Shown here: in pieces, positions 13,598 to 29,604 of the stretch
Layout of the letters: each line of letters opens with the position of its first letter
How positions within the stretch are numbered: the first letter of the stretch is position 1
Virus record (IMG/VR): IMGVR_UViG_3300015360_000041
Span: 2,900-66,899 of that record
Origin: a virus
Length of the DNA: 64,000 bases
Strand: one strand, 5' to 3'
Program-made: the position numbers and the translations under genes
Notes under the pieces: model-generated
What the model saw: only the letters and a program-made list of their open reading frames with translations
Told to the model about the DNA's origin: nothing
Databases searched by the model: none

Positions 13598-14803
13598 TCA
13601 AATTATATTTTTAACATACACGAATACTTTTACGCCGGCGTTAGGGACGCATATTACATTTCCGTTTGCGATCTCGGATTTTACCGCGGAGTGTTTCATG
13701 GGCTGCCTGTGTTTTATTTCATCTGTATGTACCCAGTAATTCATAACCCCGCCCTTCGAGTAGTTTACGAACGTGAACCCAATATCTTCCAGGCTGCCGC
13801 CGATATTGTGGTCGTAGTCGGAATAGAACTTGATTTCGTTCACCTGTATAGATTTCTTGCCAACTTCCAGGAACTCATGGTTGTTTATGAAATGTCTGAA
13901 CAGTCTAGAGCTTCCGCCGACGACAGAGTGATATTTCAATGTACCGACGCGTATGATTTCTATCACCCCGGGTTTCTTGGCGAAAAAATTGTAGCCGAAT
14001 GTGTATAACATGACTAGAGTGCCGGCTTTCAAACTATTTCTGTCTTTTTTGAGAACCATCCCGAGATTTAGAGACGCACCTCTGCTGCCATAGAAACAGT
14101 TCTTCTTTTCAAATTCCCTGGCGACCGCGCCATCTACGACCACTATCTCACAGTCCCTCGCGTATATCCTGTCGATAGTCTTGTGCGCGGCGTGTAAGAT
14201 ATACGATTTCAGTATTTCTTTTTTCGCCGGGTCATTCCACTCGAAGTCTTTTACCCACATTTTGAACGAGTTATTCTGCTCTGACTGTAACGACAAATTG
14301 AAAAAATACGACTTGTCTATGTCGTTCAACGAGTGTTTCGAACTGTCGATATAGCATATCTCATATCTCATGCCAGATCTAGTATGGAAATAATATTGGT
14401 TGTTTTCGACGGTATAATCAATTTTGCTGATATTCAGAAACGCTGTCATCTCGTTATTATATAACGTGTGTTTCGCCTGTAACGAATACACCGTGTACCC
14501 ACAATCGTATATCTTGAAAATGTTGTCATTTAATATTTTTACGGCATCGTTATTATATTTTAGATCGATAACACTGTTTTCGTGTAAAATTGTGTCCTTG
14601 CTGTTAGAATCAAAATATTTATAGTTCGGCTGTTCATATTTGACAAAATTTAATTTCCCGGTATCCAAGAATATGTTATTGTTGTCGTGTGTGTAATAAT
14701 ACGCGTGTAGATTTAATTCATTTACGAATATATCGAATATATCCGTGGGGTCATATGCGGCGTCGAAATTGAAGTATGTTATCGTATTGTCGTCTACTGA
14801 CAT
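13598..14803 (-). CDS. C-terminal part of a Hef-like homing endonuclease-associated protein
   Basis: KIYDCG, IYARDCEI, GGSSRLF, YSD..GF motifs typical of these phage proteins; its frame stays open upstream into the neighbouring ORF. Confidence 0.55.
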   Translation of the reverse strand: MSVDDNTITYFNFDAAYDPTDIFDIFVNELNLHAYYYTHDNNNIFLDTGKLNFVKYEQPNYKYFDSNSKDTILHENSVIDLKYNNDAVKILNDNIFKIYDCGYTVYSLQAKHTLYNNEMTAFLNISKIDYTVENNQYYFHTRSGMRYEICYIDSSKHSLNDIDKSYFFNLSLQSEQNNSFKMWVKDFEWNDPAKKEILKSYILHAAHKTIDRIYARDCEIVVVDGAVAREFEKKNCFYGSRGASLNLGMVLKKDRNSLKAGTLVMLYTFGYNFFAKKPGVIEIIRVGTLKYHSVVGGSSRLFRHFINNHEFLEVGKKSIQVNEIKFYSDYDHNIGGSLEDIGFTFVNYSKGGVMNYWVHTDEIKHRQPMKHSAVKSEIANGNVICVPNAGVKVFVYVKNII

Positions 14804-14829: not shown

Positions 14830-15999
14830 CTAATTCGTAGTTGTATCGACTAATACGGCCGTAGAAATATCGGTATATTTGATTTCGTCTTGTGTAATTT
14901 CACTGACGGTGTAGCTTGTAAATTTATCATGTGATTTATTGATATGATTACGTAATAGCGTTTTTATATTGTTGCTGTTATGTTTCCACTCGTTTTCAAA
15001 AACGTGGAATAATTTTATGTTTTGTTTACTTGCGGCTGTGGATTTATTGTAATGATAGTTCGTGTCCGTTTTATATTTCTCTGAGTGCCAGAATACGCCG
15101 TTGTACTCTACTGCCAGATTTACGTCTTTGCAGTATATGTCTAAGTGCTTGCCGTTCAGTATTGTTTTATTTGTCTGCTCGGTATTCGTAAACTGTTTTA
15201 TGTAGTCAAATAACTCGAGTTCCGCGCAAGATATGTTACTGTTGATGGGATTACACTCGGTACACGGGCACACGTCGTATAACTTAACTCGCTGGTACAG
15301 TAATTTGTACGGTATTTCATAATATCTGTCACATTTTGTGCACAATATCTTTAACAAGTTTTCATTCAATATTTCAAAATTATGTATGTCGTAATCTCTC
15401 GGCAGTTTATACATGTAAAAATTGACCCAGGTTTTTTGGATTTTGTTTTTAAAATATACTGATTTATTGAAACTTGCCGCCCCGTATCTTTTCATGTTTG
15501 TCGCAACCGACTTAGTTTTTATGTCTAAATGCGTCAGTGGCGATTTGCTGTTATACTTGAGTATGCAAGTGTTCTGTTTTTTCTGCTGGATGTCATGTAC
15601 CAATAACACATTTTCCACGCCGTATCTGTCCATACACGTCTGCCTGTATTTCTCTTTGCCCTCGTCACTCTGCATATAACTATCGTGACCGAATAACATG
15701 TTATTGGTTATTTTAGCTTTACCGCGCGAGCACGCTTTGCAGGTATAAAACCCGTGTCTGTTAACATTCTGCACGTATTTGTAATACATTAACGATTTTT
15801 CTGCGTCACATTTAGTGCAAATCGCAGTAATGGCTGCATGCGAATTCGTAGACAAATCATGTATCTTGACGTCTGCAGTGTAAATCACACCCTGCGCCGT
15901 CTTATCGCCATTTTCTAATTCGTATCCCTTGCTGAGAAAATAGCTTTTGTTTGTATTATTGATTTTTATCTGTATCTTTTCTTCTTTAATCATATGCAC
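14830..15999 (-). CDS. putative homing endonuclease: Zn fingers, KYG-type repeats, PD-(D/E)XK/Vsr-like domain
   Basis: CxxC pairs, TCMDRYGVEN/TNMKRYG repeats, HLDIY...AVEYNGVFWHS, FHVFENEW. Confidence 0.7.
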   Translation of the reverse strand: MHMIKEEKIQIKINNTNKSYFLSKGYELENGDKTAQGVIYTADVKIHDLSTNSHAAITAICTKCDAEKSLMYYKYVQNVNRHGFYTCKACSRGKAKITNNMLFGHDSYMQSDEGKEKYRQTCMDRYGVENVLLVHDIQQKKQNTCILKYNSKSPLTHLDIKTKSVATNMKRYGAASFNKSVYFKNKIQKTWVNFYMYKLPRDYDIHNFEILNENLLKILCTKCDRYYEIPYKLLYQRVKLYDVCPCTECNPINSNISCAELELFDYIKQFTNTEQTNKTILNGKHLDIYCKDVNLAVEYNGVFWHSEKYKTDTNYHYNKSTAASKQNIKLFHVFENEWKHNSNNIKTLLRNHINKSHDKFTSYTVSEITQDEIKYTDISTAVLVDTTTN

Positions 16000-21900: not shown

Positions 21901-22858
21901 CGCTATACATTCCACAGATTATAATGTAGGTTTCTACAGTAGTGGCTCGGTACAGGCCAAACATTCGCCAATACCTGGTACATATGCGCCAGTGACTAAG
22001 ATAACAAACGAACTAAACTGGTCTATAGCCGAGGGACACAGCACCGGTGGAGATACCACAATGTTGACAACCGTCGGTAAAGGTGACATGGGCTCTACGA
22101 TTCACCCGGTTGTTTCAGGATTCGGAGACATCGTGGACACGTCAACACAGTTGACTAAATACATAAAGACCGGAGACACCAACTCGGTGCTTGTGCCCAT
22201 TTATATTTTCGCTAAGGCATACACAGGGACCAAGGTATTATCGGCAGTAGGACAAACTTTAGATAAAAATAAGCCGTTCGTTGATACGGCAACCCAGGCG
22301 TCTTCTGGAGATTTCCCGGGCATAACAACGAGCACAAGCGCTCCTGTAGGCAAGTTGGTAATTAACGTATCGTCAAATGCGAATAACACAATAAGAATAG
22401 GCGACAGGATAGTTCTTTCTGGATTGGTTACTCCATCATGTGTCGCAGCAAACAATAAACCGTTGAGAGTTACAAACGCGACTGCTGGTGGTATGATAAC
22501 TACCGACTATACATGTGTTGCATTTATCGGAGCAGCCGGGAATGAACCTACTATTGTACTCCAACAATTACACAAGAAATATGTCAATGTCGACTCAGGC
22601 CCAGAATTACACGCATATAATGTCTTAGGTCAAATAGGAGGGAACACACGATACGTCACTAATTATGTCGAGATAGTCACTACTACTGTGGCACCCAAGC
22701 CTAAAATACACACAAAGAAATTACGTTTCTACCTCGAAGACGAGAATAACATACGTCCGTTCGAGTTCCAGTTGAACTGGATATTGACACAATACAAACC
22801 GGTACAGTTATCAACTGTATTTAGCAGTGGCGGTGGCGGTCCATCTAGTTCTATCTAA
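18959..22858 (+). CDS. large putative virion structural protein (1299 aa)
   Basis: Late-type promoter, beta-rich Thr/Gly/Ser C-terminus, central coiled coil, downstream terminator. Confidence 0.6.
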   Translation: MASTSRKYSSINDQTAQQIRNNQNTLEILTKMDQALHSTESFVTVKTTDATGKETTSQIITVGYFKQKLDQLFKMVKVLSGVDGNPAALQIANNQFKRIVVADLNLEPKPIPAITPVTTFRADPNWIFDAFLNPKISVELDLTDKIDDDTKTIQSKRFIVEFDRVVTLDPNGNESIQLTPAGAARKIEFEAKYKGKSNIDMVEFITWLDTPGLVNRVDDTLLDQDFFRVEPNRLQHKGDFTISGTDIDTLNKKLWYLLDTLTYYDISDPYNPPKPIDLKIGDSVNVNPNLAGVQSTTVYKVVEISTITSEYRVRFEQMYGEEPIPVRLNALSIYSDRVKNRSVKISVGFDDHCVIFVRQIDDTNNLVGLDWSPGVGFWTNDLRLDNANGELFSEFYIKKVYDYGLVIDDLVSKKVPNYYGIKPSAPKLDVTNFKVVQINAHLTQTVEAEQIRDLHNNKNNLTSEIQQIQDTVEKTNRLIQTTVFDSAADRKRSEDELSLLTNKLNTKNQTKFSVVQDILASKKNLNKIAPTYHARGFFPMPEAVDSTKTSPQEVVQFEIWYRKLSTSGAENPILTIPDLNNSAARSANSATTLANANISKPKTVNGAFSNWQKYKSDSRKRSQDPISGDWFWHIEDVSDANTPNINQIDIPILPGEKIQIRVKSLSEVGWPETPVESDFSEVITVEFPSDLNNVLNEDEFILKEAQADDIKVKFERDLESRGLNLHLNSALRDGDIYYAHRSDAIASGFKDTNNKNINLYDQLVLMVATINTLEETVNRAKGILEVYLVKSGNKIRLFTGNNLTYNINLEDYMTKTKIGVVSDPRDSTSRTYTNETLQINDFSILVKNSAAVAPLGLLSYRGYGQPAGLTPSRFAYDGESITAGKGVQPIWVQSDSSILNAEIPGNSAVSYLTAPRYATQQNNQWLWLQVRDLNGNYIYDSTTGQPANILWDSFLNVAFGTNTYAGGAGPAVQNCATRIIDAIHSTDYNVGFYSSGSVQAKHSPIPGTYAPVTKITNELNWSIAEGHSTGGDTTMLTTVGKGDMGSTIHPVVSGFGDIVDTSTQLTKYIKTGDTNSVLVPIYIFAKAYTGTKVLSAVGQTLDKNKPFVDTATQASSGDFPGITTSTSAPVGKLVINVSSNANNTIRIGDRIVLSGLVTPSCVAANNKPLRVTNATAGGMITTDYTCVAFIGAAGNEPTIVLQQLHKKYVNVDSGPELHAYNVLGQIGGNTRYVTNYVEIVTTTVAPKPKIHTKKLRFYLEDENNIRPFEFQLNWILTQYKPVQLSTVFSSGGGGPSSSI

Positions 22859-22888
22859 TTTTTAATATATTGATTACTAATAAGTTAC

Positions 22889-22924
22889 AAAAAATCCGGA
22901 AAATAACTCATTCCGGATTTTTTT
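22889..22924. terminator. bidirectional intrinsic terminator
   Basis: AAAAAATCCGGAA...TTCCGGATTTTTTT. Confidence 0.85.
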
Positions 22925-22981
22925 ATATGGAAAATAATACATATCTTTACTCTATATTAACAACCTAAAAATCAAAAAAAC

Positions 22982-23668
22982 ATGAAAAATCAAATCTTAT
23001 CTTTAATCTTTGTGATTAGTGCATTAACCGGTTTCTCTCAGACGTTGCCGACATACAAGACTACATCTAACTTGACGCCAATCCAAATCAGTGCGTGCGG
23101 TAACGAAAATTTCCAGACACCCGACACGTTGTTAGTTCCTGTAGGAGACAGTGTTTGGGTTGGGAATATAAACGTTTGGAATTACAACTGGCTCGGTTAT
23201 GATAGTATCGAAAAATTTTACCTTTTTAAACAAAATTTAATAACATCTATCGGTATTTGTATCGACACGGTGATTATAGGCAACAACGAAGATTTCCGGT
23301 TCAAGGTGACGAACACGACTAAATACAGATATGCAATTGTCCACATATTTCCGTTTCATACAACACATATGATATTTTATGTACGTGGGACTATGGGATT
23401 GACCACTGGCATTCCGAGTCGTGACAACAGTAAAGCCGTGCTGAACGCGTTTCCTAATCCGGCGTCGACTGAATTGACGCTGACCTTCAATACGAACAAG
23501 CACGACGAGAAAATAGAGCTGCTCGACATACATGGACGCATAATCATACAGAACACCGATGAGCGCGAGCTAGGCCGCAATACCGTTAAATTAGACGTGT
23601 CGCAACTTAGTGCAGGAATATACACCGCACGAATCGGTTCTGAAACTATCAAGTTCATGAAGATATAA
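22982..23668 (+). CDS. secreted protein with signal peptide and T9SS C-terminal sorting domain
   Basis: MKNQILSLIF...GFSQ signal; AFPNPA...DIHGR...LDVSQLSAGIY...KFMK type A CTD. Confidence 0.85.
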   Translation: MKNQILSLIFVISALTGFSQTLPTYKTTSNLTPIQISACGNENFQTPDTLLVPVGDSVWVGNINVWNYNWLGYDSIEKFYLFKQNLITSIGICIDTVIIGNNEDFRFKVTNTTKYRYAIVHIFPFHTTHMIFYVRGTMGLTTGIPSRDNSKAVLNAFPNPASTELTLTFNTNKHDEKIELLDIHGRIIIQNTDERELGRNTVKLDVSQLSAGIYTARIGSETIKFMKI

Positions 23669-23686
23669 CGGATTAGTCATTCTCAC

Positions 23687-23719
23687 AAAAAGACCTTCAG
23701 TTTCTGAAGGTCTTTTTTT
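23687..23719. terminator. bidirectional intrinsic terminator
   Basis: AAAAAGACCTTCAG-TTT-CTGAAGGTCTTTTTTT. Confidence 0.85.
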
Positions 23720-23756
23720 ATTCGCATAATTGTAGAAATAACATATAAATAAAAAC

Positions 23757-24209
23757 ATGAGCTATCAAGAATTCAAAGCAGAGATACAGCAGTCTATAAA
23801 GGAAGCGATGCTTGCAAAAAATCAACATCTATTGGACACACTGCGTTCAATTTCTGCAGGTCTTACGAATGCAGAGAAGTCCGAGAGGAACATCGGCAAG
23901 GAGTTGGACCCGTTGTCAGTTGTGGCTGCCCTGGCCAGGCAGAGACAGCAAAGCATAATTGCGTATACCGAGGCTGGAAACAAGGCGATGGCGGACTCAG
24001 AACAGACCGAATTGGGCATCATAGAATCTTACCTACCTAAGAAGTTGACGGAACCAGAGATAGACGGTGTCATATCGCTGATGGTTACATCGGAATTCAT
24101 TGGTGCCACGGCAAAGGACAAGGGCCGTGTGGTTAACGCGTTCAAAGAGAAGCATTCGGCACAGAACATGCAGCACGTCATGGCGGCGATTGCGAAATAT
24201 TTGAAATAA
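23757..24209 (+). CDS. GatB/YqeY domain protein
   Basis: IKEAMLAK..LDTLRSI, RQRQQSI..Y..AG, E.GIIESYLPK.L, KDKGRV. Confidence 0.85.
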   Translation: MSYQEFKAEIQQSIKEAMLAKNQHLLDTLRSISAGLTNAEKSERNIGKELDPLSVVAALARQRQQSIIAYTEAGNKAMADSEQTELGIIESYLPKKLTEPEIDGVISLMVTSEFIGATAKDKGRVVNAFKEKHSAQNMQHVMAAIAKYLK

Positions 24210-24236
24210 AACTTAGTGCAAATTTAAACAATACTG

Positions 24237-24269
24237 CCCGTTCATTAATATATAATATTAATGAACGGG
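24237..24269. repeat. perfect 14-bp inverted repeat covering a late-promoter motif and the orphan ATG
   Basis: CCCGTTCATTAATA-TATAA-TATTAATGAACGGG. Confidence 0.9.
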
Positions 24270-24314
24270 TCTATTTCATTACTAAGGGCCAATCCGGCCT
24301 TAACAACCTTTTGA
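24261..24314 (+). pseudogene. orphan duplicate of the first 16 codons of the 25441 gene
   Basis: MNGSISLLRANPALTTF* versus MNGSISLLRANPSLTTN at 25441. Confidence 0.9.
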
Positions 24315-25355
24315 TTTATGTTTTTGATACCAACCATTTTGTAAATATTCATTAAGTTCAACAGATTTTATCATTTTTCTTTCACTGGTATTTTTGTCAG
24401 TTACCCATAATTTTCCAAATGATGGATTTTTATTACCTTTTCGTAATTTTGCTTTTTCACTCATTTTTTGTTTTGTAATATCACTATGTTTTTTACCCTT
24501 ACCAACAAATAATAATTCTCCAGATAAATAACGACTATCGTCTTTAAAGACATTAAAAATATTGTTATTATTATCTTTTACTGTAACCATATTTTTTGAT
24601 GACCCAAAAAATTCACCGGATAAATATCTAATGTCATCAGAGTTTACTGTATATTTATTTCCGTGTATATCTTGAACGTGTACTATATTAGTATTTGGAT
24701 GATATAATTCGCCGGATAAATAACGTGGGTCGTTTAATTTTACTTTATAAAAATTTCCATTTTTATCAATTAATGTTATTTTACCCTTTGTATTTCCGGA
24801 TATTTCCCCGGATAAATAACGTGGGTCATTTTTATGAACTTGCATAGTTTTACCAGTTTCATCGATAGCTGTAAATAAATCAAGTGTTATGTGTTTAAGT
24901 TCGCCTGCTAAATATTGTTTATCGGTAACATCAACTCTGGAAGTATTGCCAAATTTATCTTTAACTGTTACAAAACCAGTATTTATATGTAACAATTCGC
25001 CAGATAAATAACGTGGGTCATTTTTATGAACTTGCATAGTTTTACCAGTTGTATCTTTTACACAAACTGTATCTTGTACATTAAATTGACCACCGCCCAA
25101 AATTATATTATATGTATCATTTCGTGCAATAAAATATTTATTTACTAATTCTTTCTCTTTCAAAAGCATATCATGTTTATTATCAAATATATACAATAAT
25201 AATTTATCAAAATTATGTAAACCATATTCCTTAATTGCCTTTTTAATATTTGTCCCAGAACCCATGTATGTGTCATTTCGTGTTTTTGTCGCATGTACAC
25301 CAATATAAATCATGTTATTTATTTTATTTGTTATTTGATATACTACATATTTCAT
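24300..25355 (-). mobile_element. free-standing GIY-YIG homing endonuclease with tandem DPRYLSGE-type repeats and a NUMOD3-like motif
   Basis: YVVYQITN...YIGVH...YMGSG, HSDITKQKMSE; AT-rich island; probable ATG at 25355. Confidence 0.9.
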
Positions 25356-25427
25356 ATTTCGTGCCAATTACTTTTGTATTTTTATATATTATATTTGAAC
25401 AGTTATAAAATCAACTTATATTTTTTT

Positions 25428-25436
25428 AATATATAA
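25428..25436 (+). promoter_or_regulatory. putative late promoter AATATATAA (recurrent motif)
   Basis: Same motif at 2531, 24247, 39761 and 58450 (+), at 7055-7063 and 25382-25390 (-), and upstream of 18959 and 36996. Confidence 0.6.
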
Positions 25437-25440
25437 CAGC

Positions 25441-28400
25441 ATGAATGGTTCAATATCCTTATTGCGTGCAAATCCCAGTTTAACGACCAACATAAAACTG
25501 GTAGTCGATACTCAATACAATCTGTATTTTGAGTCGTACTCTGCCAACCGAGAATTGTCTGACAAGAGTTTCAAGAAATACCAGATAACCGCGGATTCCT
25601 TCCTGTCCCAGAAAATTGCGGCATTCTACAAGGGATTGCCGACTGACATCGCGTTCGACGTCAAAAACGACATCAATCCCGACGTTATACAATCCGACTA
25701 CAACAAACAGTTTGATGACATCTACTATTCCGGCGGTCGAAACGTGGAAGATACCAGATACCTGGAGGAATTCCAGTACAACACGACGTTGAAGATTGTC
25801 CCGAACAACATGCCTAAGTATTTCATGGTGTTCCGTGTCGACGGCCCGGGTACCGAGGAAATGGTTAACTATAATGAGACAGTTGCACCGCTCGACCCGA
25901 GCAATACGACAAACCCGATGAGTTACATATCGTCAGCAAAGCTCATAAGCACTTTCGACCTGACTCCGAAGACTAACCTAGGCAGATTGTGGAAGAAGAA
26001 CTACATCGACGACGACTTGCTGTTGCGCTCGCCTGTCGAGTTCAATTTCAAGCAGTACGAGTTCAGTAAGTGGAACGGTTACGACTACCACACAGGCGGC
26101 ACTGTATCCAAATCGTTATTCATGAACGAGTACATGCTAAACCAGACGACGCCATTTGATATTGAATCGTTCATAACTGACGGGTTCAAGAAGAACTCTG
26201 TGGTGTCTTCTCACTTCACCAACATATCTTTCCTGTACGACGACACGGTCGCCGGGGTGTTTTACAAATCGGACACACCTGGGCAGTTCGTATATTACGA
26301 GAAAGATTATCCGTTCATCACTAAATACATACATGAGGGTTTCATAAAGTCTACGCAGTACACCAGGTTCATAGAACCTGTCACCAATGAAATATATTAC
26401 ACGTTCAGCGAGCATGTCACTTACCGCAGGAAGTGGACCATAAACAGGTACACCGGGTTTTACATAGACGAACTGATTGGGACCGATGTAGTGTCGCCAT
26501 ATGTGCCGGTACAATTCGAATACGGTAAGGGCATATACATAGTGTCGAACGTATTCAGGAATGCGAATACACCGGCCGCACCATCTGTTAGCCCTGTCAG
26601 CGGGACGTACAACGCACAGCTTCCAGTATATTTCAAGATTGACACACAGCTATTCCTTGTAGAATTCCAGAACAACGAGTACGTGTTGATTAGCGACACT
26701 GTGCATTCAGGTATGATGGATTCCTTCATCGATGCAGCACAGAAGCCAATAAAGATCGAGTATGAGAACGACGAATGGAGTATATCAGTACCGACGCTTA
26801 ATGACACATTCAGGGCGTACATAAAGAACACTGACAACACATATTACCAAAAGTTTGAGGTATCGCGTAACATTAATTCTATATACGTCATAAAGATTGT
26901 GGACAGATACTACCGCATAGGCGTAGACGCATACAACAACAGGCTGTTCGTACAGACTGACGATTACATAACTTGTGATTCGTCTATACTGTACCGCAAG
27001 TTGGGTTTCGATGGTCTTAGGGTAGATAACATCCAGGTGTTGACCAAAGACAACGACGTCACATATTTCCAGATTTACAAATTAAAACTGACAGAGATTG
27101 GCGACTGGGATTTCACACGTGAGAACACAACATATGCAGGAATAGAATACAACAAGACTGACAGCGTGTCACACGGCAGGCCTTTCCTTTTCCAATTGGA
27201 TGTCAAGGACACGAACGTGCCCAAGGACCATTACTCGGAGAAATACTATAACATATGGGTCGACGACCAGATCGTGACGATGAGCAACTACCTGTTGTAC
27301 TCCGGACAATTCGTGTTACCACAGGCCAGCGAGTATGCTGCTAGCGGCGACTTGTACATGCTTGACAAAATGAGTAACCTGACTCGCATCTGGAATGTCA
27401 ACCAGAGCGTGGCAAAATGGGGGATATACCAGTCGATAAACAACATGTCAGTGCCTTACAGCATAAACAATTCGCTTGATGTTTGTGGGCCGTACAATTT
27501 CACACCTAACATGTACTCGCCGTTCGTGGACATTAAGGAACTGACGCTAGACTGGTTCTACACCCTGGGAAAACCGGTAAATTACAGTGCCGATGATTAT
27601 TACGGGCTGACGTATTTCAGCGGAAATAATGTGTGGAACGTGACCGAACGCACACTCAACATAGATTTACCTACGCTGTCTACGCCATACATATTAAACC
27701 CACAATTCAGACTTGCTTACAAGTACAAAATAGACATGGAGTACTACAAGAACCCCGGGGCGGTGATAGACTATTTCGATTACGTGTTCAACCAATCGGT
27801 CGAGATTGACGATTCCGATGGTGATTTGTTGATGCTGCAGTACTACAAGCGCATCGCGTATTTCACAGAGAGTGACAGAGTGAACGGTCCTGCAGTATTT
27901 TTCAAGGGGTTGTCTGCGTCCATACAGTATGTCGATACGGCGGACCCTAACACTAATAGCAATTTCAAAGTATCCCCGGCAAACGACCTGTCAGGATATG
28001 GATTCTCTATACTGTTCAGCCCGAGATTCACGACCTCGCCATTGCTGTTGGGCAAGGCAGGCATCGAGATTATACTGAACAAGATTTACAACAACGTCAT
28101 GATAAACATGTACGTGTACACGCTGCCGGGTACTTACACATCGCTGTGTTACAAAGAACGCGACAGGGTTTACAACGACTCGTTCGTACAGTTCACAGGG
28201 TGGGCCGACCCGTCAATCATGTCGGTTTACACGTTCTACGACAGTGAATTACCGACACAGTCGCTGACACTCAAGACCATCACCGACATACTTTCACAGA
28301 ACATGCACACGCACCCACATTTCAGCCAAGGAATAAAATACACTGTCGTTGAGAATGTCGTTGAGTATCCTCTGGAATCGATAACGTGCGATTGGCTGCC

Positions 28401-29604
28401 ATTGGCTAACCGGTCTGTAGTGACATTAAAGTTCCTGAAGGACATACCGTTGAAGCACGGCGACTGGATATTCATACAGAACACGACTTACGCGGTGTTC
28501 GACACTAACCTACAGATTGATACAAAGAAACACAATCGTTCTGTTACCGTAGTTGTAGACAATGACCAGACCACACAAGTGGGCATCATGAACAACGCAC
28601 TGTATAATAACTCGTCTAATATAAAAGTTACGAAAGAGAAATCTGTGTACCCGTTCAGGTTGAAAGTCAACAAGCCTGACAACATAAAGATAAACCGTTC
28701 GTCTAACATGGTCGCCGGCGATACCTCGTGTCCCGTCAAACCTAGGAATACTTTCAGTGTAAACACAGACATAATAGTAAGTAACGAGAACTACTATGAG
28801 CGTGTTCCATACGTGTACGTAGACGATAACATAAGCAGACGATTGATGAAATCGAATACGAAGGAATTACCACACTCGGTACTTGACGGTCTTCCGTCAA
28901 TATTCAGGTACAGCGCAGATTACGAACCTATATTAAACACCGTAGACATGTTCAAACAGTCGGCATTGACTTCATACAATAACGCGCACACGATCGGAAT
29001 CAGCATGCCTGCGGGAACCGCGTTCTACATGGAGTCAGACATCATAAACAACAAGTATCACATATCGGTCCACGTCACTGACGTACTGAATCAGCTATAT
29101 GACAACGTGACCGGGCTTCAGATCATAGCAGTCGGTGACGCGTTGTATGTGCATGACACTAACGATTTCCCTTGGGCTGAATATAGGACGGGCCACGTCA
29201 TAGCAGTATCGGAATCAACACTTGGCCCTGTAGGACCAAACAAGTCGTATAAGATAACGCTGAGTTTCGAGTTCACATTTTTGCCAATACTGACAGACAT
29301 AGATTTTGCGATAACGCCGAAGACTTTCAGGATGTACCTATTCAAGTATTCGCAAGCTAATACTGCGTTCGAGTACCAGTACGCGAATTTTGGCAAGACC
29401 CGCGAGACCATGATAAGCAAGGTGTACACGGGAGTGAACCCGCTGCAGACCAGCAACCAGATATGGAAGACGACCAACAAGTACCCGATGATAGACGAGC
29501 ACGGCATGACGACAATATCGCGAAACCTGTTCAAGTCGTCATGGGACCCTAATTACTATTACAAGACAATCTCGAAAAAACACGAAGTAAAACCATTATC
29601 ATAA
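25441..29604 (+). CDS. large putative virion (baseplate/tail) protein (1387 aa)
   Basis: Late-type promoter, aromatic/beta-rich composition, coupled to the next gene. Confidence 0.6.
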   Translation: MNGSISLLRANPSLTTNIKLVVDTQYNLYFESYSANRELSDKSFKKYQITADSFLSQKIAAFYKGLPTDIAFDVKNDINPDVIQSDYNKQFDDIYYSGGRNVEDTRYLEEFQYNTTLKIVPNNMPKYFMVFRVDGPGTEEMVNYNETVAPLDPSNTTNPMSYISSAKLISTFDLTPKTNLGRLWKKNYIDDDLLLRSPVEFNFKQYEFSKWNGYDYHTGGTVSKSLFMNEYMLNQTTPFDIESFITDGFKKNSVVSSHFTNISFLYDDTVAGVFYKSDTPGQFVYYEKDYPFITKYIHEGFIKSTQYTRFIEPVTNEIYYTFSEHVTYRRKWTINRYTGFYIDELIGTDVVSPYVPVQFEYGKGIYIVSNVFRNANTPAAPSVSPVSGTYNAQLPVYFKIDTQLFLVEFQNNEYVLISDTVHSGMMDSFIDAAQKPIKIEYENDEWSISVPTLNDTFRAYIKNTDNTYYQKFEVSRNINSIYVIKIVDRYYRIGVDAYNNRLFVQTDDYITCDSSILYRKLGFDGLRVDNIQVLTKDNDVTYFQIYKLKLTEIGDWDFTRENTTYAGIEYNKTDSVSHGRPFLFQLDVKDTNVPKDHYSEKYYNIWVDDQIVTMSNYLLYSGQFVLPQASEYAASGDLYMLDKMSNLTRIWNVNQSVAKWGIYQSINNMSVPYSINNSLDVCGPYNFTPNMYSPFVDIKELTLDWFYTLGKPVNYSADDYYGLTYFSGNNVWNVTERTLNIDLPTLSTPYILNPQFRLAYKYKIDMEYYKNPGAVIDYFDYVFNQSVEIDDSDGDLLMLQYYKRIAYFTESDRVNGPAVFFKGLSASIQYVDTADPNTNSNFKVSPANDLSGYGFSILFSPRFTTSPLLLGKAGIEIILNKIYNNVMINMYVYTLPGTYTSLCYKERDRVYNDSFVQFTGWADPSIMSVYTFYDSELPTQSLTLKTITDILSQNMHTHPHFSQGIKYTVVENVVEYPLESITCDWLPLANRSVVTLKFLKDIPLKHGDWIFIQNTTYAVFDTNLQIDTKKHNRSVTVVVDNDQTTQVGIMNNALYNNSSNIKVTKEKSVYPFRLKVNKPDNIKINRSSNMVAGDTSCPVKPRNTFSVNTDIIVSNENYYERVPYVYVDDNISRRLMKSNTKELPHSVLDGLPSIFRYSADYEPILNTVDMFKQSALTSYNNAHTIGISMPAGTAFYMESDIINNKYHISVHVTDVLNQLYDNVTGLQIIAVGDALYVHDTNDFPWAEYRTGHVIAVSESTLGPVGPNKSYKITLSFEFTFLPILTDIDFAITPKTFRMYLFKYSQANTAFEYQYANFGKTRETMISKVYTGVNPLQTSNQIWKTTNKYPMIDEHGMTTISRNLFKSSWDPNYYYKTISKKHEVKPLS

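What the first reader, a model, noticed from the sequence alone, without database searches (positions are those of the whole stretch)
24237..25488. Homing endonuclease flanked by an orphan and a synonymously recoded copy of a structural gene's 5' end
Seen: 24261-24314 encodes MNGSISLLRANPALTTF*, and the 1387-aa gene at 25441 starts MNGSISLLRANPSLTTN. 15 of 16 residues are identical but 11 of 16 codons differ (10 synonymous). Each copy has its own AATATATAA motif. The antisense AT-rich GIY-YIG gene lies between them and its last codons overlap the orphan copy. Inference: the element inserted about codon 16 of an essential gene without splicing, and rescues it by carrying a replacement promoter and a recoded, cleavage-resistant N-terminus. 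This is an intronless gene-repair style of homing, and it pinpoints the likely target site.
Basis: partly seen in the sequence, partly recalled or inferred. Interest (0 to 1): 0.8.

Follow-up and report, generated by a model that had tools for sequence, protein, structure and literature searches.

The report
Phage endonuclease cassette replacing a gene's start
A selfish endonuclease gene sits inside the start of a conserved giant-phage gene and keeps that gene working by bringing its own promoter-like motif and a foreign copy of the first 15 codons, an arrangement so far described mainly for gene ends in fungal mitochondria.

Summary
The orphan ORF (24261-24314) and the live gene (25441-29604) share 15 of 16 residues. 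11 of 16 codons differ, 10 of them synonymously.

A contig in an unrelated metagenome run (X5), about 96% identical on both flanks, joins 24305 directly to 25486 and skips 1180 nt. There the orphan-type codons run in frame into the gene body.

The 1180-nt insert has 26.6% GC against 45% for the gene body. It holds:
- an intact antisense GIY-YIG/NUMOD3 endonuclease gene;
- a copy of the phage's gene-proximal AATATATAA motif;
- a replacement copy of codons 1-15.

That replacement is as diverged from the orphan as distant relatives are, so it is foreign rather than locally mutated.

In a third run (X4) the orphan-endonuclease junction recurs. The endonuclease is 98.6% identical there, while the flank is about 89% identical. 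This suggests recent spread.

Not shown: cleavage, the target site, immunity of the recoded copy, and that the gene is structural or essential.

The closest known analogue is the fungal mitochondrial mobile-ORF elements that carry a foreign C-terminal gene end. My searches found no phage or 5'-end case, so I class it as a new variant of a known kind.

The parts
23757..24209 (+). YqeY-like gene. It forms the left flank (left homology arm) of the insertion.
   Evidence: Pfam YqeY 3.6e-24. Relatives L003/L005 have the same gene directly upstream of the orthologue. X5 and X4 contigs cover it at about 96% and about 89% identity.
24236..24270 (.). Perfect palindrome (15+3+15, or 16 pairs). It is a terminator-like hairpin on both strands, with the native AATATATAA motif at its apex and the orphan ATG-AAC-GGG in its right arm.
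   Evidence: RNA fold gives -20.9 kcal/mol (z -7.7) on + and -19.7 (z -5.9) on -. The equivalent region before the live copy is unstructured (-4.8, z -0.2).
24247..24255 (+). Native copy of the gene-proximal AATATATAA motif, 5 nt before the orphan ATG.
24261..24314 (+). Orphan ORF. Native codons 1-15/16 of the 1387-aa gene (24261-24305/8) are followed by F and a stop read from cassette DNA.
   Evidence: Its 16 residues equal the N-terminus of the closest homologues P0002-P0004. In X5 the same codons run into the gene body.
24306..25485 (.). The inserted cassette: 1180 nt. Its ends may be shifted up to 3 nt to the right, because ACC occurs at both ends.
   Evidence: The X5 contig joins 24305 to 25486 (skips 1180, 104 nt and 1076 nt on the two sides, both=3). 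GC is 0.266 against 0.453 for the gene body and 0.477 for the left flank.
24300..25355 (-). GIY-YIG/NUMOD3 homing endonuclease gene (351 aa). Its last two codons and its stop are supplied by orphan codons 16-14.
   Evidence: All invariant columns of a 24-member family alignment are present. The closest homologues are 68% and 64% identical.
24511..25086 (-). Six tandem 96-nt (32-aa) repeats inside the endonuclease (DPRYLSGEL... modules), presumed to be a DNA-binding array.
   Evidence: Repeat families D1-D3 at 96-nt spacing. The repeat number varies among homologues. The function is inferred.
25382..25390 (-). AATATATAA motif 26 nt upstream of the endonuclease ATG.
25428..25436 (+). Cassette-borne AATATATAA motif 4 nt before the live ATG (candidate replacement promoter).
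   Evidence: 9 of 14 exact motif hits lie 0-40 nt upstream of the 81 genes, against 0.36 expected.
25441..25485 (+). Cassette-borne foreign copy of codons 1-15, in frame with the native gene body.
25441..29604 (+). Live 1387-aa gene: a conserved megaphage protein of unknown function, native from 25486 onwards.
   Evidence: 104 homologues were found. The N-terminal motif is among the most conserved parts.

Best explanation
A 1180-bp free-standing homing-endonuclease cassette is inserted after codon 15/16 of a conserved gene of an uncultured, roughly 400-kb phage.

Read on the + strand, the cassette contains:
- an antisense GIY-YIG/NUMOD3 endonuclease gene with its own upstream AATATATAA motif;
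- a second AATATATAA motif;
- a foreign copy of codons 1-15, conserved in protein but with saturated synonymous differences, that reads in frame into the native gene body.

The native promoter motif, hairpin and codons 1-15 are left behind as a 17-codon orphan.

Shown here: the insertion boundaries, the existence of the empty allele, the foreign origin of the live 5' end, and recurrence of the orphan-endonuclease junction in a more diverged background.

Inferred mechanism:
- The endonuclease cuts the uninterrupted allele near codon 16.
- Repair uses the left flank plus orphan, and the gene body, as homology arms, and copies the whole cassette.
- The occupied allele is protected because the target is split. 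The only place that restores the right half-site has a left half differing at 15 of 45 nt.
- The same divergence would prevent direct-repeat recombination from deleting the cassette.

Also inferred: the stranded native hairpin, 30 nt past the endonuclease stop, may now terminate the endonuclease transcript.
For: - Empty site. X5 record 29 (1179 nt) covers 24202-24305 with 1 mismatch and 1 gap, then 25486-26561 with 42 mismatches. Neighbouring X5 contigs are about 96% identical on both sides. The two copies share no run long enough for a k-mer assembly jump.
- Foreign composition. The insert has GC 0.266 against 0.453 for the gene body.
- The orphan is the native end. Its 16 residues equal the N-termini of P0002-P0004, while only the live copy has A13S.
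- The live 5' end is foreign. It shares 26 of 39 nt with the orphan, the same range as either copy against relatives of 43-59% protein identity (24-28 of 39).
- Candidate promoter. The motif occurs 14 times against 1.7 expected, and 9 of the 14 lie 0-40 nt upstream of genes against 0.36 expected. The same motif precedes the orthologue in L002 and L003.
- Intact endonuclease. It is full length with all family-invariant residues.
- Spread. In X4 the orphan-endonuclease junction is present. Across 24261-25032, the stretch carrying the orphan and the endonuclease 3' part, there are 11 differences in 798 nt, against 79 in 714 nt of flank (Fisher p 2e-16).
- No splicing element. Rfam scan.
- Precedent. 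Fungal mitochondrial mobile ORFs carry a diverged but protein-conserved C-terminal gene end and leave the native end as a remnant (PMC3630166, passages read).
Against: - No cleavage, target-site or expression data exist.
- Among 82 other loci of this endonuclease family in IMG/VR, no second clear flank duplication was found. The best other flank matches look, from their translations, like tRNA-gene flanks or tandem endonuclease genes.
- A degenerate search for the N-terminal motif found no second copy in other viral contigs. The arrangement may therefore be a one-off scar rather than a maintained strategy.
- The right junction (25155-25468) is seen only in the window and its probable source run.
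- The X4 flank and endonuclease lie on separate short contigs linked only by a 28-nt overlap, and I could not see where the 9 differences of X4 record 19 lie.
- The X5 allele could be a secondary precise loss rather than a never-invaded site.
- The endonuclease takes its stop codon from target DNA, which looks like an accident of joining.
Confidence: 0.68

Rival explanations
1. One-off repair scar. The endonuclease originally sat in the intergenic space upstream of this gene in a diverged donor phage. After a break near codon 16 of the recipient, the right end copied the donor's gene start, promoter and endonuclease. The duplication is then an accident and the cassette is now a passive passenger. 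This explains the origin and does not exclude later homing of the product.
For: - The upstream neighbourhood differs among relatives: L002 and L004 lack YqeY upstream, so a donor could have lacked left homology.
- The endonuclease stop codon comes from target DNA.
- No second case was found among 82 family loci or in the N-terminal motif scan.
Against: The same orphan-endonuclease junction occurs in X4. There the endonuclease is 98.6% identical but the flank only about 89% identical. That pattern is what movement of the finished cassette between diverged genomes would give.
Confidence: 0.2
2. The empty allele in X5 is secondary. The cassette was ancestral in this lineage and was lost precisely by recombination within the TTAAC(A/G)ACC microhomology at the ends of the two copies.
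For: The two copies end in an 8-of-9-nt identical stretch, and the join in X5 is ambiguous by 3 nt.
Against: - The relatives whose upstream DNA I read (L002-L005) have a single copy and no endonuclease there.
- The homologous proteins start with the orphan-type N-terminus.
- The orphan shows no decay: it differs by at most 1 nt from X5 over 24202-24305.
Confidence: 0.07
3. Local tandem duplication of the gene start at insertion, followed by divergence in place.
For: Both copies carry the same motif at nearly the same spacing.
Against: - 15 of 45 nt differ between the copies, while the flanks differ from X5 by only about 4%.
- Upstream of the motif the two copies are not alignable: 21-32 of 60 nt identical.
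- The divergence equals that to distant relatives.
Confidence: 0.03
4. Assembly artefact: the contig wrongly joins an endonuclease from another genome into this gene.
For: The window is a metagenome-assembled contig. The right junction has no independent cover in runs X2-X5.
Against: - The left junction is seen independently in X4, and pieces of the endonuclease are seen at 100% identity in X2.
- The live gene is open for 1387 codons across the right junction.
- The probable source run holds 99% of the sampled words.
Confidence: 0.02

Closest known systems
Mobile ORF elements (mORFs) of fungal mitochondria that create gene hybrids. Examples: Allomyces macrogynus atp6; Glomus sp. atp6, atp9, cox2 and nad3; Rhizopus oryzae atp9; Mortierella verticillata cox2. 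As described in PMC3630166 (passages read).
   Same: - An endonuclease ORF is inserted inside a protein-coding gene without an intron or intein.
- The element carries a replacement copy of the displaced gene end. That copy is strongly diverged in DNA (64-81% there, 67-69% here) but nearly identical in protein, and is in frame with the gene core.
- The native end stays beside it as a remnant nearly identical to close relatives.
- The replacement is interpreted as horizontally acquired.
   Different: - Here the 5' end is replaced, not the 3' end, so the element must also supply transcription and translation start signals, and it does carry the phage's gene-proximal motif.
- The endonuclease is antisense to the host gene, not fused in phase.
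- The host is a bacteriophage.
- The duplicated part is only 15-16 codons.
Free-standing Seg-type GIY-YIG endonucleases of T4-like phages ('intronless homing'). Sources: review PMC2988022 (passages read) and SegB paper PMC2330249 (abstract seen).
   Same: - A free-standing GIY-YIG gene that is present or absent between related phages.
- It is AT-rich and lies next to conserved genes.
- Mobility is expected by double-strand-break repair with co-conversion of flanks.
   Different: In the passages of PMC2988022 that I read, free-standing endonucleases are described as inserted in intergenic regions. This one lies inside an ORF and repairs it with a carried gene start. Cleavage has not been shown here.
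Phage genes split by free-standing endonucleases: mobE in nrdA of Aeromonas phage Aeh1, mobA at T4 gene 60/39, and the seg-like gene in gene 43 of phage 25 (PMC2988022, passages read).
   Same: An endonuclease sits inside a conserved coding region without splicing, and gene function is retained.
   Different: In those cases the gene is cut into two polypeptides that reassemble. Here the short N-terminal piece is discarded and replaced, so a single full-length protein is made.
Intron- or intein-borne homing endonucleases, and collaborative homing.
   Same: Insertion in a highly conserved motif of a conserved gene. The occupied allele is probably immune because the site is interrupted.
   Different: No Rfam intron model matches the region. 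The endonuclease is on the opposite strand, so it cannot be an intein.

Membership tests
GIY-YIG homing endonuclease (free-standing, Seg-like) | GIY-YIG catalytic domain | tested here: inconclusive
   Pfam GIY-YIG scores 19.8 bits (cut-off 22.6) and SegE_GIY-YIG 22.4 (cut-off 25), both just below cut-off. PHROG homing-endonuclease families match at 3e-32 and 4.6e-10. The N-terminus has the VVY...YIG pattern and all 26 invariant columns of a 24-member alignment. Which residues are catalytic is recalled, not tested.
GIY-YIG homing endonuclease (free-standing, Seg-like) | Attached DNA-binding module | tested here: met
   NUMOD3 scores 26.9 bits against a cut-off of 20.4. There are also six 32-aa tandem repeats.
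GIY-YIG homing endonuclease (free-standing, Seg-like) | Presence/absence polymorphism at one site between closely related genomes | tested here: met
   An X5 contig about 96% identical lacks exactly 1180 nt.
GIY-YIG homing endonuclease (free-standing, Seg-like) | Site-specific cleavage of the endonuclease-less allele, and biased inheritance | not testable with these tools
   Needs enzyme assays or co-infection. The phage is uncultured.
mORF-type gene-end replacement element (fungal mitochondria) | Endonuclease ORF inside a protein gene, flanked by two copies of the gene end | tested here: met
   Here it is the 5' end, a mirror image of the described cases.
mORF-type gene-end replacement element (fungal mitochondria) | The inserted copy is diverged in DNA, conserved in protein and in frame. 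The native copy matches close relatives. | tested here: met
   15 of 48 nt differ with 15 of 16 residues identical. The orphan equals the X5 allele within 1 nt over 24202-24305 and equals the homologues' N-terminus. The live copy is as far from the orphan as distant relatives are.
mORF-type gene-end replacement element (fungal mitochondria) | Homology of the endonuclease or element to the mitochondrial ones (common descent) | not tested
   In PMC3630166 most of those ORFs are LAGLIDADG and one is GIY-YIG. I made no sequence comparison. The resemblance is in architecture only.
Group I/II intron or intein | Self-splicing RNA structure, or an in-frame intein | tested here: not met
   No intron family matched at E<=1 in 23700-25800. 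The endonuclease ORF is antisense to the host gene.

The most novel reading that the evidence does not exclude
This is an autonomous homing unit of a kind not yet described in phages: a 'gene-start replacement' cassette. Its carried promoter and foreign first 15 codons would be a maintained rescue-and-immunity module. The module would let a free-standing endonuclease colonise the most conserved motif at the very start of a core gene, resist its own cleavage, and resist deletion by repeat recombination. The stranded native hairpin would serve as the endonuclease's terminator. Such cassettes would move foreign gene ends and promoters between diverged megaphages.
Probability: 0.35. Interest if true: 0.75.

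Novelty: new variant of a known kind. Interest (0 to 1): 0.62.

Why it matters
Free-standing homing endonucleases in phages are known to avoid harm in three ways: sitting between genes, hiding in introns or inteins, or splitting a gene into two working halves. This case shows a fourth route in a phage. The element discards the gene's start and brings a replacement with its own start signals. That is the mirror image of the C-terminal replacement known from fungal mitochondria.

Both alleles, occupied and empty, are in hand. The target site, the immunity of the recoded copy and the promoter function are therefore directly testable with synthetic DNA.

It also shows how short stretches of foreign coding sequence and promoters can be carried between diverged giant phages. 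Annotators should note that a 17-codon orphan beside an endonuclease can mark such an event.

Tried and rejected
Closer relatives' DNA.
I therefore could not read the 5' regions of the 74-80% identical homologues P0002-P0005.
- P0009 was not found in IMG/VR.

Donor search.
- An exact 33-nt stretch of the live copy has no match in IMG/VR.
- A degenerate pattern for the N-terminal motif found only the two contigs already known as L003 and L005, once each.

Generality.
- A screen of 82 family loci for peptide duplicates flanking the endonuclease found no second convincing case. The first version of that script timed out.

Function of the 1387-aa protein.
- No Pfam or PHROG hit.
- The PDB profile search gave only E 0.21.
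- The protein atlas gave scores below 0.8.
- The N-terminal 700-aa model (pLDDT 82.6) had no Foldseek PDB match and VIA Z below 5.
- In BFVD it matches only uncharacterised jumbo-phage proteins.
- The C-terminal 488-aa model (pLDDT 80.7, pTM 0.42) matched only small generic beta-barrels, Z at most 8.8.
- I considered a tail-sheath identity because of gene order in PTm1. No fold evidence supports it.

Read cover.
- X3 has no cover over 24213-25625, and X4 has none over 25033-26667.
- Table 3 was truncated. I could not see where the differences of X4 record 19 or X5 record 29 lie, so no co-conversion gradient could be measured.

Literature.
- Searches found mitochondrial cases but no phage case of gene-end replacement.
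- The library holds open-access papers only, so absence is not proof.
- I opened no supplements. The alignments and identity tables of PMC3630166 (Figures S1-S4, Tables S1-S4) were not seen.
- The original Allomyces paper was not read. It is cited only through PMC3630166.
Full report
WHAT IS THERE.

The window is most of a 66,899-base IMG/VR virus record that CheckV rates 16% complete, so the genome is probably around 400 kb. The nearest relatives of the gene in question lie on contigs of 313-391 kb, and in the 460-735-kb 'uncultured phage' and Prevotella Lak megaphage records. More distant homologues occur in Tenacibaculum and Chryseobacterium jumbo phages. A neighbouring ORF carries a type IX secretion sorting domain. 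Together these point to a Bacteroidota host.

Around the finding the + strand carries, in order:
- a YqeY-like gene (23757-24209);
- a 17-codon ORF (24261-24314);
- an antisense 351-aa ORF (24300-25355);
- the 1387-aa gene (25441-29604).

The short ORF reads MNGSISLLRANPALTTF* and the long gene begins MNGSISLLRANPSLTTN. 15 of 16 residues are identical. 11 of 16 codons differ, 10 of them synonymously, and 15 of 48 nt differ.

I compared the 162 termini of 81 window genes with every six-frame fragment of the window. Only this pair stands out, at 49.8 bits (E 1.5e-11), against 29 bits for the next best.

The antisense ORF passes Pfam's NUMOD3 cut-off. It falls just under the GIY-YIG and SegE_GIY-YIG cut-offs and matches PHROG homing-endonuclease families strongly. 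It belongs to a family of more than 1400 database proteins. It keeps every invariant column of a 24-member alignment, and its C-terminus ends within a few residues of its closest homologues. Its final GGT TGT TAA is the reverse complement of orphan codons 16, 15 and 14.

THE DECISIVE TEST.

Such an allele exists.

I laid the contigs of four public runs on 22800-27500. One run from a different study (X5, labelled aquatic) gave a 1179-nt contig. It covers 24202-24305 with one mismatch and one 1-nt gap. It then continues at 25486-26561 with 42 mismatches, skipping 1180 nt. The join is ambiguous by 3 nt because ACC stands at both ends. Other X5 contigs cover the left flank (30 mismatches in 781 nt) and the downstream gene (33 in 973), so this is a roughly 96% identical phage.

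24305 closes codon 15 of the orphan and 25486 opens codon 16 of the live gene, so the joined frame is intact. It encodes the family-consensus N-terminus. The two copies in the window share no identical run long enough to let a 31-mer assembler jump between them, so the join is not an assembly collapse.

More distant relatives (43-59% protein identity) also have one copy and no endonuclease upstream. L003 and L005 have YqeY directly upstream, as here.

WHAT THE INSERT IS.

The 1180 nt (24306-25485) have 26.6% GC, against 47.7% for the left flank and 45.3% for the gene body. The insert holds the endonuclease gene, an 85-nt spacer with two divergent AATATATAA motifs, and the first 15 codons of the live gene.

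The motif is a feature of this phage. It has 14 exact copies against 1.7 expected. 9 of the 14 lie 0-40 nt upstream of the 81 genes, against 0.36 expected, often 3-5 nt before the ATG. It also precedes the orthologue in L002 and L003. I read it as a promoter element, but that is inference.

The orphan keeps the native copy of the motif at the apex of a perfect 33-nt palindrome whose right arm contains ATG-AAC-GGG. This folds at -20.9 kcal/mol (z -7.7) and scans as a terminator on both strands. L003 and L005 have a comparable palindrome around the motif. The cassette's copy has no such structure (-4.8 kcal/mol, z -0.2).

WHERE THE LIVE 5' END CAME FROM.

The orphan's 16 residues equal the N-termini of the closest homologues, P0002-P0004. 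Only the live copy has Ser at position 13.

Over codons 4-16 the two copies share 26 of 39 nt. Either copy shares 24-28 of 39 with relatives of 43-59% protein identity. Synonymous sites are therefore saturated, while the surrounding DNA differs from X5 by only about 4%. Upstream of the motif the two copies do not align: 21-32 of 60 nt are identical.

The live 5' end therefore did not drift in place. It came in with the cassette from a distant member of the same phage group, or it has travelled with the endonuclease for a long time. The N-terminal motif is among the most conserved parts of the protein (R9 and N17 are invariant in 60 sequences). This explains why a foreign copy is protein-identical, and it fits the habit of homing endonucleases of targeting conserved sequence.

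EVIDENCE OF SPREAD.

In run X4 (labelled soil, another study) one contig begins 10 nt before the orphan ATG and runs through the orphan into the endonuclease (24261-24695, 9 mismatches). Two more contigs cover 24700-25032 with 2 mismatches. A contig over the left flank (23565-24278) has 75 mismatches and 4 gaps.

That is 11 differences in 798 nt against 79 in 714 nt, Fisher p 2e-16. A cassette far better conserved than its flank is what recent horizontal movement would give.

Caveats:
- The pieces are short contigs linked by a 28-nt overlap.
- I could not see where the 9 mismatches lie.
- The right junction is not covered in X4.

MOST LIKELY MECHANISM.

Shown: the boundaries, the empty allele, the foreign gene start, an intact endonuclease, and the excess conservation.

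Inferred:
- The enzyme cuts the uninterrupted allele near codon 16.
- Break repair uses the YqeY-orphan side and the gene body as homology arms, and copies the whole cassette.
- The occupied genome is protected because the site is split, and the reconstituted junction has a left half differing at 15 of 45 nt.
- The same divergence blocks repeat-mediated loss of the cassette.
- The native hairpin lies 30 nt beyond the endonuclease stop and may terminate its transcript.

The borrowed stop codon is best explained by an origin through aberrant repair. So are the variable upstream neighbourhood among relatives and the lack of a second case among 82 family loci. In that scenario the donor carried the endonuclease upstream of this gene. 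The finished product may then have homed as a unit.

WHAT IT IS NOT.

No Rfam intron family matches 23700-25800 at E<=1. The endonuclease is antisense, so it is neither an intron nor an intein. In-place duplication and an assembly artefact are both disfavoured, as set out under the rival explanations.

COMPARISON WITH WHAT IS KNOWN.

The closest described architecture is the mobile ORF element of fungal mitochondria. There an endonuclease ORF is inserted in atp6, atp9, cox2 or nad3 together with a foreign C-terminal gene end. That end is 64-81% identical in DNA and nearly identical in protein. The native C-terminus stays as a remnant 91-98% identical to the sister species, and the first case was Allomyces macrogynus atp6 (PMC3630166, passages read).

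The present case differs in several ways. It is in a phage. It replaces the 5' end, so it must bring start signals. Its endonuclease is antisense. It duplicates only 15-16 codons.

For phages, the review by Edgell and colleagues (PMC2988022) describes free-standing endonucleases inside coding regions only as gene splitters: mobE in nrdA, mobA at gene 60, and a seg-like gene in gene 43. The word stem 'duplicat' does not occur in its text (passages read). Barth et al. 2023 (PMC10448857) likewise mention only the split reductase gene (passages read).

Seven literature searches found no phage example. The library is open-access only and no supplements were opened.

THE HOST GENE.

Its function stays unknown. 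There are no family or PDB sequence matches. Two confident partial models find only uncharacterised jumbo-phage proteins in BFVD and generic beta-sandwich or beta-barrel pieces in the PDB.

The Tenacibaculum phage PTm1 homologue lies between the neck protein and the DNA-end-protector and portal genes. That is a hint of a virion role, no more. In this window its neighbours are replication and nucleotide-metabolism genes. 'Conserved core gene' is justified (104 homologues). 'Structural' and 'essential' are not.

VERDICT.

It is a new variant of a known kind, with the enzymology still to be done.

Noticed in passing
window 24511-25086 (- strand): The endonuclease contains six tandem 32-aa repeats (consensus about xDPRYLSGELxxxxKGxVxVKDKxGNxxxV). 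The number of repeats differs widely among homologues, which looks like a modular DNA-binding array. Pfam sees only a weak Myosin_N SH3-like hit there.
   Followed up: partly
window, 14 sites, e.g. 2531, 7063(-), 18921, 39761, 58450: AATATATAA is an over-represented gene-proximal motif: 14 copies against 1.7 expected, and 9 of the 14 lie within 40 nt upstream of genes. It often sits only 3-5 nt before the ATG and often directly after a terminator hairpin. This suggests near-leaderless transcripts from a phage-specific promoter.
   Followed up: partly
window 13598-14803 (-) and 14830-15999 (-): Two adjacent ORFs match HNH/homing-endonuclease PHROGs. They sit between the ribonucleotide reductase large-subunit gene and a DNA polymerase gene. 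This is a second endonuclease-rich spot in the window.
   Followed up: no
IMG/VR loci L041, L043, L046, L053, L072, L074 and others: For many members of this endonuclease family, the translated flanks share short peptides on both sides (such as VGFEPT, RFESE, GSIPA). I read these as tRNA-gene T-arms, so the genes probably sit inside tRNA gene arrays, as recalled for T4 segB. L071 has two endonuclease genes in tandem.
   Followed up: no
L003 5440-5497 and L005 5937-5994: In a 50%-identical relative, the orthologue is preceded by a palindrome (AATCCTTTTAATATATAATTAAAAGGATT) with the same motif at its apex. A terminator hairpin overlapping the promoter-like motif therefore seems a conserved arrangement upstream of this gene.
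   Followed up: partly
window 22982-23668 (+): A 228-aa ORF with a type IX secretion C-terminal sorting domain (Pfam Por_Secre_tail, 6.7e-14) is encoded by the phage. It points to a Bacteroidota host.
   Followed up: no
window 26774: The roughly 96% identical phage in run X5 carries a 9-nt in-frame insertion (three extra codons) after 26774 in the 1387-aa gene.
   Followed up: no
window 24260: Both X4 and X5 lack one A at 24260. In them the native motif sits 4 nt before the ATG, as in the cassette's copy, and the palindrome is slightly imperfect.
   Followed up: no
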